In this document: one piece after another, positions 22,792 through 27,695 of the stretch
Layout: every line of letters starts with the position of its first letter
Numbering within the stretch: the first letter of the stretch is position 1
NCBI RefSeq assembly: GCF_041886205.1
Contig: NZ_CP169029.1
Reading direction: 5' to 3' (one strand)
DNA from: Escherichia coli
GTDB lineage: Bacteria > Pseudomonadota > Gammaproteobacteria > Enterobacterales > Enterobacteriaceae
Length of the DNA stretch: 64,000 bases
Position numbers and translations under genes: made by a program
Notes under the pieces: model-generated
The model's database searches: none
Told to the model about the DNA's origin: nothing
The model's input: only the letters and a program-made list of their open reading frames with translations

Positions 22792-23718
22792 ATGGAACTT
22801 CGCCAGTTACGTTATTTTGTCCGTATTGTGGAAACCGGCAGTATGGGCAGCGCGGCGCTTGATCTCGACATCGGTGTCTCAGCGCTCAGTCAACAGATGA
22901 CAAGGCTGGAAAATGAACTCGCCATTCGTCTGTTGCAACGAACCTCGCGTGGCGTAACGCCAACTAACTCGGGTCTGGCCTTTTACTCACAGGCACAGCT
23001 GGCGTTGCGTCATGCTGATGATGCCATTCTTGCTGCGCGCGATGCACGTCTGTCAGGACACGTCAGCGTCGGTATGGCCCCCAGTACAGCCTCCGTCCTG
23101 GGGGTGCCGTTTATTCATGCCATGCGGGCACATTACGCCGACGTTCGCCTGCATGTGGTGGAAAGCCTGTCAGGTAATCTGGAACGGATGATCAACACCC
23201 GTCAGATTGATCTGGCCGTTGTTTTTCGGAAAGAAAAGCACCTGCGCTGGAGCGCCAGGCCAGTTCTCGAAGAGCAGCTTTTTCTGATTGGCACACATGA
23301 TCTGCTGACGGATATTCCGGATGACACCATAACCCCTGCTCAACTGACGAATATTCCCCTGATCATGCCAAGCTCAGGCCACGGCTTGCGCGGCCTACTG
23401 GAGGCTATTTGTCAGGAACACGGGCTGAAGGTTGATATCGCCACGGAAATTGATGGCCTGACGTTACTGATGCGCGCCGTTGGCAGCGGACTCGGTGCAA
23501 CATTACAACCCGGAGCAGCCATTTCGCATCTTGAGGGTGAAGCATTAAGAGTGATCGGCATCCATAATCCCATACTCAGCCGCCCCAATTTTCTGGTCAG
23601 CCTATCGGACGATGAACTCCCGCCCGCCGCTCTTGCAGCCCGCGTGATACTTACAAAAGTCATGCGTAAACTTGTTGAAATCGGCCATTGGCCGGGCGCA
23701 ACCATTTACGCTCCCTAA
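22792..23718 (+). CDS. tcuR: LysR-family regulator, TcuR-like (tricarballylate utilization), 308 aa
   Basis: LysR HTH MELRQLRYFVRIVETGSMGSAA...; directly upstream of tcuABC-like genes. Confidence 0.75.
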   Translation: MELRQLRYFVRIVETGSMGSAALDLDIGVSALSQQMTRLENELAIRLLQRTSRGVTPTNSGLAFYSQAQLALRHADDAILAARDARLSGHVSVGMAPSTASVLGVPFIHAMRAHYADVRLHVVESLSGNLERMINTRQIDLAVVFRKEKHLRWSARPVLEEQLFLIGTHDLLTDIPDDTITPAQLTNIPLIMPSSGHGLRGLLEAICQEHGLKVDIATEIDGLTLLMRAVGSGLGATLQPGAAISHLEGEALRVIGIHNPILSRPNFLVSLSDDELPPAALAARVILTKVMRKLVEIGHWPGATIYAP

Positions 23719-23815
23719 ACCCCCCTTTAGTTATTCGTTATAGCGCTTACACAACACACGAACATACACTTCATTTACAAATTTAACAGATGGTTAAAAG
23801 GTAGTGGAGTAGACG

Positions 23816-25219
23816 ATGGTTGATGTACTGGTGATTGGCGGTGGTAATGCCGCGCTATGCGCCGCCTTAACCGCTCGTGAGGCAGGAGCTTCCGTGCTGC
23901 TGTTAGAGGCTGCGCCTAGGGAATGGCGCGGCGGGAATTCCCAACACACGCGCAATTTACGCTGTATGCACGATACACCACAGGATGTGCTGGTCGAGAG
24001 TTATCCCGAAGAGGAATTCTGGCAGGATCTCTGGCGTGTCACCGAAGGCAATACCAATGAAGCGTTGGCGCGCTTGGTGATTCGAACCTCTTCCCAGTGT
24101 CGTGACTGGATGCGTCAGCATGGGGTTAATTTTCAGCCTCCGCTTTCCGGCGCGCTGCATGTGGCGCGCACCAATGCCTTCTTCATGGGCGGTGGTAAAG
24201 CCCTCGTGAACGCCTATTACCGCAGTGCAGAAAAGCTGGGGGTACAGATTCGCTACAGCACGCCGGTACAGGCGCTTGAATTGCACAACGGCAAATTCGT
24301 CGCAGCCCTGGCAGGTCACGAACGCATTGAGGCGAAAGCCTGCGTACTCGCCGCCGGCGGGTTTGAATCCAACCGCGAATGGCTACGCGACGCCTGGGGA
24401 GAGAACGCACGTGGCGAATGGCCAGCCGATAATTTCCTCATTCGCGGCACCCGCTTTAATCAGGGCGTCTTGCTCAAATTTATGATCAATGCCGGGGCAG
24501 ACATTATCGGTGATCCGTCTCAGTCCCATTGTGTGGCGATTGATGCACGGGCACCGTTGTACGACGGCGGCATTTGTACCCGCGTGGATTGTGTCTCACT
24601 GGGTGTGGTAGTCAACCGGGATGCAGAACGCTTTTACGATGAAGGGGAAGATTTTTGGCCGAAACGCTATGCCATCTGGGGACGTCTGGTTGCCCACCAA
24701 CCGGGGCAGATTGGCTACTCCATTATCGACAGCAAAGCGATCGGCCACTTTATGCCGCCAGTTTTCCCCGGCGCACAGGCCAATACGCTAAGAGATCTGG
24801 CCCGCCAGTTGGGGCTGGATCCCGAACACTTTACCCACACCGTGGAACACTACAATCAGGCCTGTCAGCTGGGTCAGTTTGATCACACGAAGCTGGACAA
24901 CTGCGCGACGCAGGGCCTGATTCCACCGAAAACCCACTGGGCGCGGCCTATTGATACGCCCCCCTACTACGGTTATGCCCTGCGACCAGGAATCACCTTT
25001 ACCTATCTCGGGCTGAAAGTAAATGAACACGCTGCGGTTCATTTCGCAGGCACCCCCAGCCCTAACCTGTTCGTTGCCGGTGAAATGATGGCAGGCAATG
25101 TACTGGGTAAGGGCTATACCGCCGGGGTCGGGATGTCCATTGGCACCACGTTTGGTCGCATCGCTGGTAAAGAAGCCGCTCAGGCAGCACGCAAGGAGAC
25201 GCATCATGAAGCAGCTTGA
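23816..25219 (+). CDS. tcuA: TcuA-like FAD-dependent tricarballylate dehydrogenase (467 aa)
   Basis: N-terminal FAD-binding fold [24 protein letters not shown]; flavoprotein of fumarate-reductase/succinate-dehydrogenase type; context. Confidence 0.8.
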
Positions 25220-26345
25220 AAAGTTGATTATCGAGGCCAAAATTCTCACCGAACCAGAGGCTGAAGTCGAGCGGGTGATGCATGTGTGTAACGCATGTCG
25301 CTATTGCGAAGGATTTTGCGCCGTGTTCCCGGCAATGACTCAACGACTGGAATTTGGCAAAGCCGACATTAACTATCTGGCAAATCTGTGCCATAACTGC
25401 GGCGCTTGCCTACACGCCTGCCAGTATGCTCCCCCCCATGAGTTTGGGATCAACGTGCCGAAAGCAATGGCAGAGGTACGTCTGGAAACTTATCAACAGT
25501 ACGCGCAACCGGCGGTCTTCGGGGCGCTGTATCGCCGGGCTGGCGTCACCGTGACGCTGGCACTGGTCTTAAGTATGTTCCTCTTTTTACTCCTGGCGAT
25601 GGGGCTGAAGGGATCGCTGCTCCACCCACCGCTGGCCGGTGATTTCTACCAAATCTTCCCGCACAACCTGCTGGCCTGGATGTTTGGATCGGTATTCATT
25701 CTGGCTATTGGTTTACTGATGGTAGGGGTGATCCGCTTCTGGCGCGAGATTTCTCCCGTCGGGCCGCGCCCAGCGGAAATTGCCGAAGCGTCGAGCAACG
25801 CGCTAACGCTAAAATATCTTGACGGCGGACATGGCAAAGGGTGCAACGAAGCGGACGATGCTTTCACATTGATGCGTCGTCGTTTCCACCATTTCACCTT
25901 CTACGGCTTTATGCTCTGTTTCGCCGCGACCATGGTGGCGACGGGTTACCACTACTTTGCTAGTTGGGAAGCCCCCTACCCATTCTTCAGTGTGCCGGTC
26001 ATGCTTGGCACGTTAGGAGGAGTCGGTTTAATCGTAGGCCCGGCAGGCCTGCTGTGGTTAAACCTTAAGCGCTCGCCACTGCATGGCGATGCGCGACAGA
26101 AACCGATGGATCGGGGATTTATTTTACTACTGCTCCTGACTAGCCTCACCGGTTTAGGTTTGCTGGTGGGAAGAGATACCTCATGGATGGGGATCCTGCT
26201 TGCCATCCATCTTGGCGTGGTCATGGCGCTTTTTTTAACAATTCCGTACGGAAAATTTGCCCACGGATTTTACCGCTGCGCGTCTTTACTCAAATGGGCG
26301 ATCGAGAAGCGACGTGGAAAACAGGCGGGGGTCGCAAGCGACTGA
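25206..26345 (+). CDS. tcuB: TcuB-like membrane Fe-S protein (379 aa)
   Basis: Cys clusters [11 protein letters not shown] and [11 protein letters not shown] followed by multiple TM segments; start overlaps the tcuA stop (ORF-track start trimmed to MKQLEK). Confidence 0.75.
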
Positions 26346-26399
26346 CCCGCACACTCTTACCTCTATACATAATTATGATAAGGCAATGGAGCAACCTCA

Positions 26400-27695
26400 A
26401 TGACTCAACAACCATCGCGTACCGGCACGTTCGGCGCAATACTCCGTGTTACCAGCGGTAATTTCCTCGAACAGTTCGATTTTTTCCTGTTTGGTTTTTA
26501 CGCTACTTATATCGCAAAGACGTTTTTTCCTGCCGAAAGTGAGTTTGCCGCATTAATGCTTACTTTTGCCGTTTTTGGCTCCGGCTTTTTAATGCGCCCT
26601 ATCGGGGCCGTGGTATTGGGTGCATATATCGACAGAATTGGGCGACGGAAAGGGCTGATGGTTACCCTGGCGATTATGGGCTGCGGCACGATGCTCATCG
26701 CCCTCGTTCCGGGTTATCAGACTATCGGCCTGCTGGCCCCTGTACTGGTCCTGGTGGGGCGTCTGCTACAGGGATTTTCTGCTGGAGTCGAACTGGGCGG
26801 CGTCTCTGTTTATCTTTCTGAGATCGCCACACCAGGCAATAAAGGCTTTTATACCAGTTGGCAATCGGCCAGCCAGCAGGTGGCGATTGTGGTCGCCGCG
26901 CTGATCGGGTACGGTCTGAATGCCACGCTGGGACACGATGAAATCTCCGAATGGGGTTGGCGAATACCGTTCTTCATTGGCTGCATGATTATTCCGCTGA
27001 TTTTTGTTCTGCGACGTTCGCTTCAGGAAACTGAAACCTTTTTACAGCGTAAACACCGTCCGGACACCCGGGAAATTTTTACCACCATTGCTAAAAACTG
27101 GCGTATTATCACTGCGGGAACCCTGCTGGTGGCGATGACGACCACGACATTTTATTTTATTACTGTCTATACCCCCACTTACGGGAGAACGGTGTTGAAC
27201 CTGAGCGCACGTGATAGTCTGATCGTCACTATGCTGGTAGGGATTTCTAACTTTATATGGCTGCCGATTGGCGGCGCGATCTCTGACCGGATTGGGCGTC
27301 TCCCGGTGCTAATGGGCATCACCTTACTCGCCATCGTCACCACCTGGCCGGTGATGCACTGGCTTACCGCTGCACCTGACGTCACCCGCATGACACTGGT
27401 GCTGCTCTGGTTCTCGTTCTTTTTTGGGATGTATAACGGTGCAATGGTAGCAGCCCTGACAGAAGTGATGCCGGTTTATGTCCGAACCGTGGGTTTTTCG
27501 CTGGCCTTTAGTCTCGCCACGGCGATTTTCGGCGGCCTGACACCAGCCATCTCCACTGCATTGGTCCAGTTGACAGGCGATAAAAGTTCTCCTGGATGGT
27601 GGCTAATGTGCGCTGCGCTGTGCGGGCTCGCCGCGACGACAATACTGTTTGCTCGTCTCAGTAGTGGTTATCAGACAGTAAAAAATAAGCTCTGA
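26400..27695 (+). CDS. tcuC: TcuC-like MFS transporter (citrate/tricarballylate-proton symporter family), 431 aa
   Basis: 12-TM MFS protein with a metabolite-proton symporter signature; last gene of the cluster. Confidence 0.8.

What the first reader, a model, noticed from the sequence alone, without database searches (positions are those of the whole stretch)
22792..27695. Complete tcuRABC-like tricarballylate utilization locus in an E. coli background
A LysR regulator, an FAD-dependent dehydrogenase, a membrane Fe-S protein with two Cys clusters and an MFS transporter occur in the order and with the overlaps (tcuA/tcuB) characteristic of the Salmonella tricarballylate catabolic genes. K-12 lacks these genes at this position. 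The tcuC gene ends in a strong terminator (27702-27735).
Basis: partly seen in the sequence, partly recalled or inferred. Interest (0 to 1): 0.4.

Follow-up and report, generated by a model that had tools for sequence, protein, structure and literature searches.

The report
Tricarballylate/citrate utilisation genes in E. coli
This is an intact, horizontally acquired four-gene cassette (tcuR-tcuA-tcuB-tcuC) that should let this E. coli strain import and burn tricarballylate, and probably citrate; it is rare in E. coli but already annotated in public genomes and nearly identical to the 'citrate operon' of IncHI1 plasmids.

Summary
Four intact same-strand genes encode a LysR regulator (22792-23718), TcuA (23816-25219), TcuB (25206-26345, not 25098) and TcuC (26400-27695). 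TcuA, TcuB and TcuC pass NCBI's curated family cut-offs by wide margins.

Amino-acid identity to the chromosomal Salmonella enterica tcuRABC locus is 84/91/88/92%. Gene lengths match except TcuC (431 vs 434 aa), and the 14-nt tcuA/tcuB overlap is the same. K-12 has 207 bp where this strain has a 10.85-kb island (17135-27983).

Three refinements:
- The 5.2-kb tcu module (22689-27862) belongs to a plasmid-type lineage. It is 94.6% DNA-identical to the IncHI1 plasmid R27 region, but only 79% to Salmonella's chromosomal locus. The IncHI1 literature describes a 'citrate operon', which I take to be this region. Aerobic citrate use is therefore a likely second phenotype.
- Other E. coli carry a 95.8% allele at the same hipA-yneL site with different neighbouring cargo.
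- The 'strong terminator' is a real, positionally conserved hairpin with a weak T-tail.

The full module occurs in 32 of 5426 complete E. coli genomes, and RefSeq already names tcuR, tcuA and tcuB. Ordinary, already known, low interest.

The parts
17135..27983 (.). 10.85-kb island between hipA and the yneL pseudogene, absent from K-12. It holds a truncated autotransporter, an IS3-family remnant, a GPH transporter, a GH5-like hydrolase, a LacI regulator and the tcu module.
   Evidence: blastn against MG1655. K-12 annotation shows hipA, 317 bp, yneL. Only 6 of 5426 genomes hold the left part and 5 hold the right junction. CP52E annotation.
22689..27862 (+). tcu module: the unit shared with plasmids. 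It matches IncHI1 R27 over the whole span and IncFII plasmids up to 27710.
   Evidence: blastn: 94.6% to R27 over 5175 bp, 92.1% to an IncFII plasmid, 78.9% to the Salmonella chromosome. GC is 0.51-0.57 against 0.37-0.50 in the flanks.
22737..22764 (+). Candidate sigma-70 promoter for tcuR (CTGACA-16-TAAAAT, 10 of 12 matches)
   Evidence: Consensus scan. It lies inside the shared module, 28 nt upstream of the tcuR ATG. Inferred, not shown.
22792..23718 (+). tcuR, LysR-type regulator (308 aa)
   Evidence: Pfam HTH_1 and LysR_substrate. RefSeq names the identical protein TcuR. 83.7% identical to Salmonella TcuR and 97.7% to R27.
23715..23730 (+). Interrupted palindrome CTAAAC-N4-CTTTAG overlapping the tcuR stop codon; candidate TcuR operator
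   Evidence: Conserved in 10 enterobacterial tcuR-tcuA intergenic regions. The function is inferred.
23764..23799 (+). Conserved AT-rich block upstream of tcuA (ATACAyTTCAwTTACAAATTTAACA...), candidate tcuABC promoter/activation site. Shine-Dalgarno GGAG at 23806-23809.
   Evidence: Alignment A2. The function is inferred.
23816..25219 (+). tcuA, FAD-dependent tricarballylate dehydrogenase (467 aa)
   Evidence: NF006130 equivalog 786 bits against a cut-off of 369. GGGNAA dinucleotide-binding motif at residues 8-13. 91.2% identical to Salmonella TcuA. The nearest solved relatives are flavocytochrome c fumarate reductases.
25206..26345 (+). tcuB, membrane 4Fe-4S protein (379 aa), overlapping tcuA by 14 nt
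   Evidence: NF011607 708 bits against a cut-off of 524. Two invariant CX2CX2CX3C motifs. At least 5 hydrophobic segments. AAGGAG Shine-Dalgarno.
26400..27695 (+). tcuC, MFS (MHS family) tricarballylate/citrate:H+ symporter (431 aa)
   Evidence: NF011656 727 bits against a cut-off of 445. 92.3% identical to Salmonella TcuC and 96.8% to the R27 transporter. UniRef names the exact protein 'Citrate-proton symporter'.
27701..27730 (+). Hairpin 6 nt after the tcuC stop codon; probable operon terminator
   Evidence: Fold energy and shuffles, inverted repeat I15, and a positionally conserved hairpin in other lineages.

Best explanation
The locus is a functional, horizontally acquired tcuRABC catabolic cassette. 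Inferred mechanism, taken from the Salmonella system:
- TcuR (LysR type) activates the tcuABC operon.
- TcuC imports tricarballylate, and also its analogue citrate, with a proton.
- TcuA (FAD) dehydrogenates tricarballylate to cis-aconitate, which the host aconitase feeds into the TCA cycle.
- TcuB re-oxidises TcuA's FADH2 and passes the electrons to the respiratory chain. It is made by translational coupling to tcuA and has two 4Fe-4S clusters on an N-terminal soluble domain followed by a membrane domain.

Shown here: the genes are intact, orthologous to the Salmonella genes, syntenic, with conserved cofactor motifs and conserved expression signals. Inferred: that they are expressed, and the resulting phenotype.

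The cassette belongs to the plasmid-type lineage that includes IncHI1 R27 and IncFII plasmids. It sits in a 10.85-kb island at the hipA-yneL variable site.
For: Family scores lie far above the curated cut-offs. Amino-acid identity to the Salmonella chromosomal tcuRABC is 84-92%; TcuR, TcuA and TcuB have the same lengths (308/467/379 aa), TcuC is 431 vs 434 aa, and the 14-nt tcuA/tcuB overlap is the same. That Salmonella locus is the LT2 gene, because a published tcuC primer matches it exactly (PMC10468695). PMC10468695 describes TcuA as tricarballylate dehydrogenase, TcuB as FADH2:quinone oxidoreductase and TcuC as the proton symporter. The Fe-S Cys motifs and the FAD motif are conserved. Shine-Dalgarno sites precede tcuA, tcuB and tcuC. 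tcuR-tcuA-tcuB synteny holds across 80 loci from Enterobacteriaceae to Burkholderiales. The intergenic palindrome, promoter block and terminator hairpin are conserved. RefSeq annotates tcuR, tcuA and tcuB in 99.9%-identical loci.
Against: No phenotype or expression data exist for this strain or for its near-identical relatives. TcuR is the most diverged component (84% to Salmonella), so its inducer specificity is assumed. The terminator's T-tail is weak. The statement that tcuABC alone lets E. coli K-12 grow on tricarballylate rests on my memory of Lewis et al. 2004 (J Bacteriol 186:1629), which I could not open.
Confidence: 0.9

Rival explanations
1. The locus acts mainly as a citrate-utilisation (Cit+) determinant. 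The MFS transporter imports citrate aerobically, which E. coli otherwise cannot do, and TcuA/TcuB are bystanders for that phenotype. This adds to the tricarballylate reading rather than excluding it.
For: The module is 94.6% DNA-identical and 95-98% aa-identical to the R27 region. The IncHI1 literature describes a 'citrate operon' and 'genes for citrate utilization' on R27-like plasmids (10.1101/334409; PMC5390554). UniRef names the exact transporter 'Citrate-proton symporter'. RefSeq labels a truncated plasmid copy 'citrate-proton symporter'. From memory and unverified: the cloned Cit determinant of E. coli plasmids (Sasatsu et al. 1985; Ishiguro and Sato 1985) has a 431-aa transporter preceded by a 379-aa ORF, the same sizes as here, and Lewis et al. 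2004 reported that Salmonella tcuC alone lets K-12 grow on citrate.
Against: The complete, conserved tcuA and tcuB genes, with intact cofactor motifs, are not needed for citrate and would decay if citrate uptake were the only selected function. I did not show with tools that the mapped Cit determinant of R27 is this exact region.
Confidence: 0.6
2. The genes are an inactive relic: acquired DNA that is not expressed or is non-functional in E. coli.
For: The island is surrounded by IS elements, truncated genes and pseudogenes. Nearby lsrA and lsrC carry inactivating mutations in this strain.
Against: All four reading frames are full length with no frameshift or stop. They are identical or nearly so in 6 complete genomes from different hosts, and the exact TcuR, TcuB and TcuC sequences occur on about 260-320 contigs. 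Motifs and expression signals are conserved.
Confidence: 0.04
3. TcuA/TcuB act as a CobZ-like precorrin-3B synthase in cobalamin synthesis, or as a Qmo/Hdr-like redox module, rather than in tricarballylate catabolism.
For: The TIGR02485 model is called 'CobZ_N-term' and scores 683 bits. TcuB weakly matches QmoC (101 bits) and HdrA2 (18 bits).
Against: The TcuA-specific equivalog NF006130 scores higher (786 bits). The QmoC and HdrA2 scores are far below their cut-offs of 300 and 1100. TcuA and TcuB are separate proteins, adjacent to a tricarboxylate transporter and a LysR regulator, with no cob genes nearby.
Confidence: 0.01

Closest known systems
Salmonella enterica serovar Typhimurium LT2 tcuRABC (STM0689-STM0692 region; Lewis et al. 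2004, and Lewis and Escalante-Semerena 2006 and 2007)
   Same: Same four genes in the same order and on the same strand. TcuR, TcuA and TcuB have identical lengths (308/467/379 aa). The 14-nt tcuA/tcuB overlap is the same, aa identity is 84-92%, the Fe-S and FAD motifs are the same, and a hairpin follows tcuC.
   Different: DNA identity is only 78.9%. TcuC is 431 aa here against 434 aa. The chromosomal site differs: hipA-yneL in E. coli against fur-ybfN in Salmonella. The E. coli copy is IS-flanked accessory DNA, not a species-wide locus.
The tcuRABC-type region of IncHI1 plasmid R27, which I take to be the 'citrate operon' of R27-like IncHI1 plasmids and relate, from memory, to the plasmid/Tn3411 Cit determinant (citA/citB)
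   Same: 94.6% DNA identity over 5175 bp. aa identity is 97.7/96.8/95.0/96.8% for the four proteins. Gene order and overlap are the same, and the terminator hairpin is nearly the same.
   Different: Plasmid-borne next to an ISNCY transposase, rather than chromosomal. In the literature it is described by its citrate phenotype rather than by tricarballylate.
tcuRABC on IncFII plasmids of E. coli (about 80-100 kb, next to repA)
   Same: 92.1% DNA identity and 91-97% aa identity. The left end of the module is identical (window 22689).
   Different: Homology ends at window 27710, inside the hairpin, so the terminator is disrupted. In some plasmids the transporter is cut by IS26.
Second chromosomal E. 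coli allele (TW10590, 0-4, P393-F10, PSJ-22, PSS-08-2)
   Same: In the two loci examined (TW10590 and 0-4), the same module sits at the same site immediately upstream of yneL-fimA. The right-junction sequence 27862-27948 is shared.
   Different: 95.8% DNA identity. It is closer to R27 (97.6%). The left-hand cargo differs (DEAD/DEAH helicase, sigma-like HTH protein), and a PrlF antitoxin remnant lies between tcuC and yneL.

Membership tests
TcuRABC tricarballylate utilisation system | TcuA: FAD-dependent dehydrogenase matching the TcuA equivalog model, with an N-terminal dinucleotide-binding motif | tested here: met
   NF006130 786 bits against a cut-off of 369, covering 1-461 of 467. GGGNAA at residues 8-13. 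91.2% identical to Salmonella TcuA.
TcuRABC tricarballylate utilisation system | TcuB: integral membrane protein with two CX2CX2CX3C 4Fe-4S motifs | tested here: met
   NF011607 708 bits against a cut-off of 524. Motifs at C28-C38 and C62-C72 are invariant in 7 homologues. At least 5 hydrophobic segments between residues 114 and 346.
TcuRABC tricarballylate utilisation system | TcuC: MFS metabolite:H+ symporter orthologous to Salmonella TcuC | tested here: met
   NF011656 727 bits against a cut-off of 445. 92.3% identity. It falls in the same 90% cluster as Salmonella TcuC.
TcuRABC tricarballylate utilisation system | TcuR: LysR-type regulator encoded immediately 5' of tcuABC on the same strand | tested here: met
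   Pfam HTH_1 and LysR_substrate. 83.7% identical to the Salmonella protein at the same position. RefSeq names it TcuR. No dedicated NCBIfam HMM hit was returned.
TcuRABC tricarballylate utilisation system | Gene order tcuR-tcuA-tcuB-tcuC with overlapping tcuA/tcuB | tested here: met
   The Salmonella locus has the same 14-nt overlap. tcuR-tcuA-tcuB synteny holds in most of 80 related loci.
TcuRABC tricarballylate utilisation system | Confers growth on tricarballylate; TcuA converts tricarballylate to cis-aconitate | not testable with these tools
   Needs growth and enzyme assays.
Plasmid citrate-utilisation (Cit) determinant of IncHI1 / Tn3411 type | Near-identity to the tcuRABC-type region of R27, the candidate for the 'citrate operon' described on R27-like IncHI1 plasmids | tested here: met
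   94.6% over 5175 bp to NC_002305.1 130.5-135.5 kb. 'Citrate operon' in 10.1101/334409 and 'genes for citrate utilization' in PMC5390554. That the term refers to exactly this R27 region is my inference.
Plasmid citrate-utilisation (Cit) determinant of IncHI1 / Tn3411 type | Confers an aerobic citrate-positive phenotype on E. coli | not testable with these tools
   Needs a Simmons citrate or minimal citrate growth test.
CobZ (TcuA-TcuB-like precorrin-3B synthase) | Fused or cob-cluster-associated flavoprotein/Fe-S protein | tested here: not met
   TcuA and TcuB are separate genes, there are no cob genes in the neighbourhood, and the TcuA equivalog scores higher than the CobZ_N-term model.

The most novel reading that the evidence does not exclude
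The hipA-yneL site of E. coli is a long-standing chromosomal home of the tcu module. Two alleles 4% apart share the right junction, with different cargo to their left. Under this reading, the IncHI1 and IncFII plasmid 'citrate operons' were captured from such a chromosomal copy rather than the reverse. Island-bearing E. coli would then be naturally Cit+ and Tcb+ and could be misidentified by IMViC-type tests.
Probability: 0.25. Interest if true: 0.3.

Novelty: already known. Interest (0 to 1): 0.15.

Why it matters
It adds little. The system is well characterised in Salmonella. The same genes are long known on plasmids as a citrate-utilisation trait, and RefSeq already annotates this exact chromosomal locus in E. 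coli.

Practical points:
- Strains with the island may be citrate-positive, which is atypical for E. coli and relevant to biochemical identification.
- They may use tricarballylate. From general knowledge, this compound is formed from trans-aconitate by rumen microbes and chelates Mg2+.

The hipA-yneL region is also a modest example of an accessory-gene hot spot that exchanges a metabolic module with conjugative plasmids.

Tried and rejected
- **Original papers not held.** I tried to open Lewis et al. 2004, Lewis and Escalante-Semerena 2006, and Ishiguro et al. 1982 by DOI or PMC id. What I say about them rests on memory, on PMC10468695, and on the reference list of PMC11903708.
- **Genome scan missed Salmonella.** I recovered a Salmonella chromosomal locus through the TcuC protein cluster and the look-up of encoding contigs, and tied it to LT2 with a published primer.
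- **No island boundary repeats.** I looked for terminal inverted or direct repeats bounding the island or the tcu module and found only chance-level short matches.
- **No RNA families.** The Rfam scan of 15000-31000 at E <= 0.1 returned nothing.
- **Irrelevant paper.** PMC9602443 on citrate-utilising ExPEC concerns a different, glucose-dependent phenotype.
- **25098 start for tcuB rejected.** The 36 extra codons lie inside tcuA, have no family match, and lack a Shine-Dalgarno site.
- **CobZ and QmoC/Hdr readings rejected.** See the rival explanations.
- **No solved structures.** No structure exists for TcuA or TcuB themselves. The nearest relatives by sequence are flavocytochrome c fumarate reductases for TcuA, and an insignificant HdrA hit for TcuB.
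Full report
**Observation.** The + strand between 22792 and 27695 carries four consecutive ORFs:
- a 308-aa LysR-type regulator (Pfam HTH_1 plus LysR_substrate)
- a 467-aa flavoprotein
- a cysteine-rich membrane protein
- a 431-aa MFS transporter

Against NCBIfam, the second, third and fourth proteins match the TcuA equivalog (NF006130, 786 bits, cut-off 369), TcuB (NF011607, 708 bits, cut-off 524) and TcuC (NF011656, 727 bits, cut-off 445).

The mechanical ORF for the third gene begins at 25098. The family match starts at residue 37. There is an AAGGAG Shine-Dalgarno 7 nt before the ATG at 25206, and RefSeq calls a 379-aa TcuB in identical loci. So tcuB is 25206-26345 and overlaps tcuA by 14 nt. 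tcuC has a GGAG 8 nt upstream of its ATG.

TcuB has two CX2CX2CX3C motifs (C28-C38, C62-C72). They are invariant in homologues from Salmonella, R27, Klebsiella, Paraburkholderia, Bordetella and Marinomonas. At least five hydrophobic segments follow them. TcuA has the N-terminal GGGNAA dinucleotide-binding motif.

The hairpin after tcuC is real. It spans 27701-27730; in the 56-nt stretch folded, the MFE structure is -21.9 kcal/mol with z = -3.2. Its T-tail is weak. A GC-rich hairpin occupies the same position in R27, Salmonella, Raoultella and K. oxytoca although the sequences differ, which argues for function.

**Comparison with the characterised system.** I therefore reached the Salmonella locus through the TcuC protein family and fetched a Salmonella enterica chromosomal contig.

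That locus lies between fur and ybfN-chiP-glnS. It encodes proteins of 308, 467, 379 and 434 aa, with the same 14-nt tcuA/tcuB overlap. A wild-type version of the LT2 tcuC mutagenesis primer published in PMC10468695 matches it exactly, at the codon for G173. Identities to the window proteins are TcuR 83.7%, TcuA 91.2%, TcuB 88.5% and TcuC 92.3%.

PMC10468695 describes TcuA as tricarballylate dehydrogenase, TcuB as an FADH2:quinone oxidoreductase and TcuC as the proton-coupled tricarballylate transporter. The tcuR-tcuA-tcuB arrangement is conserved in most of 80 loci from Enterobacteriaceae to Burkholderiales. TcuC is present in enterobacteria and Paraburkholderia.

**What lineage it is.** At the DNA level the window is only 78.9% identical to the Salmonella chromosomal locus, and 78-80% to Citrobacter youngae, Raoultella and K. 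oxytoca. It is 94.6% identical over 5175 bp (22689-27862) to IncHI1 plasmid R27 of S. Typhi, and 92.1% (22689-27710) to IncFII plasmids of E. coli. Amino-acid identities to R27 are 97.7/96.8/95.0/96.8%.

The IncHI1 literature speaks of a 'citrate operon' and 'genes for citrate utilization' on R27-like plasmids (10.1101/334409 and PMC5390554). UniRef names the exact window transporter 'Citrate-proton symporter'. RefSeq labels a truncated plasmid copy 'citrate-proton symporter'.

From memory, and not verified here, the cloned plasmid Cit determinant of E. coli has a 431-aa transporter preceded by a 379-aa ORF, the sizes found here. Also from memory, Lewis et al. 2004 reported that Salmonella tcuC alone lets K-12 grow on citrate and that tcuABC lets it grow on tricarballylate. 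The plasmid 'Cit' trait and the tcu system are thus one gene family, and this strain is likely both tricarballylate- and citrate-positive.

Outside E. coli and plasmids, the closest named proteins are from Citrobacter: C. amalonaticus and a C. freundii complex strain TcuC at 96.3%, and C. farmeri TcuB at 94.7%.

**Context.** The flanks are E. coli: 99.6% identity to K-12 through hipA and 98.8% through ydeS-ydeP. In MG1655, hipA and the yneL pseudogene are 317 bp apart. In the window, 10.85 kb (17135-27983) replaces 207 bp of that spacer. The island holds:
- a truncated autotransporter
- an IS3-family remnant
- a GPH-family transporter, a GH5-like hydrolase and a LacI regulator
- the tcu module

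Downstream, IS3 interrupts the fimbrial genes.

The complete module is in 32 of 5426 complete E. coli genomes:
- six chromosomes at 99.9% (from frog, pig, human, bear, guinea fowl and one unstated source)
- about five chromosomes at 95.7-95.8%
- large plasmids at 94.6-95.8%
- about sixteen IncFII plasmids at 92%

The left part of the island occurs in only six genomes. The two loci examined for the 95.8% chromosomal allele (TW10590, strain 0-4) sit at the same site next to yneL-fimA and share the right-junction sequence. Their left-hand cargo is different, and they are closer to R27 (97.6%). So hipA-yneL is a variable hot spot, and the module has moved between chromosome and plasmids. The direction of transfer is not resolved.

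**Mechanism.** Shown here: intact orthologues, cofactor motifs, translational coupling signals, a conserved palindrome (23715-23730), a conserved AT-rich block (23764-23799) upstream of tcuA, a promoter-like site upstream of tcuR and a terminator hairpin.

Inferred from the Salmonella work:
1. TcuR activates tcuABC.
2. TcuC imports tricarballylate or citrate with H+.
3. TcuA-FAD oxidises tricarballylate to cis-aconitate.
4. TcuB passes the electrons to the quinone pool.
5. Aconitase feeds the product into the TCA cycle.

TcuA's nearest solved relatives are flavocytochrome c fumarate reductases, which fits a succinate-dehydrogenase-like C-C dehydrogenation. No structure of TcuA or TcuB exists.

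**Verdict.** The finding is real and correctly interpreted, with minor coordinate corrections and the added link to the plasmid citrate determinant. It is already annotated in RefSeq, and the exact TcuR, TcuB and TcuC proteins are on about 260-320 public contigs. Novelty: already known. Interest: low.

Noticed in passing
window 17135-27983; L088 and L089: The hipA-yneL spacer is a variable hot spot. This strain holds GH5/GPH/LacI plus tcu there. TW10590 and strain 0-4 hold a DEAD/DEAH helicase, a sigma-like HTH protein or large ATP-binding protein (possibly defence genes), plus a 95.8% tcu allele and a PrlF antitoxin remnant at the same site.
   Followed up: partly
window 18939-22683: A GPH-family transporter (18939-20354, -), a GH5-like 'cellulase family' hydrolase (20405-21490, -) and a divergent LacI regulator (21676-22683, +) form a putative glycoside-utilisation module. 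It is present in only 6 of 5426 complete E. coli genomes. Relatives at 80-84% occur in Enterobacter, Klebsiella and Silvania. There is no PDB relative by sequence and the substrate is unknown.
   Followed up: partly
window 5908 and 4386: Relative to strain ET201, lsrA has a 10-bp deletion (frameshift) and lsrC has a TGG-to-TAG nonsense change. The ORF list shows both genes split. The AI-2 importer is probably inactive in this strain, unless these are assembly errors.
   Followed up: partly
window 9799-15219: An intact 1806-aa ECSE_1600-family autotransporter lies where K-12 has the yneO pseudogene. It is frameshifted in strain ET201.
   Followed up: no
window 17233-18879: A truncated autotransporter beta-barrel gene abuts a roughly 255-bp IS3-family (ISEc31-like, 86%) remnant at the left end of the island. 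The 560-aa ORF in the ORF list is an artefactual extension through the IS remnant.
   Followed up: no
window 28610-30343: IS3 (orfA 29643-29951, orfB 28780-29646, - strand) is inserted in the ydeT-type fimbrial operon. The fimA-like gene is cut after about 47 codons, and the chaperone and most of the usher are missing. Only the usher C-terminus (30029-30343) and ydeS/R/Q remain.
   Followed up: no
L002, L004, L005 (Citrobacter youngae and Citrobacter sp.): These Citrobacter loci have tcuR-tcuA-tcuB at 85-93% aa identity but no TcuC match downstream. Many Bordetella, Achromobacter and Cupriavidus loci also lack TcuC, presumably using another tricarboxylate transporter.
   Followed up: no
L084 6737-6831 (IncFII plasmid) against window 27701-27730: Homology between the IncFII plasmid copy and the window ends at 27710, inside the left arm of the terminator hairpin. 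The plasmid copy has therefore lost the hairpin; a Tn3-family remnant follows.
   Followed up: partly
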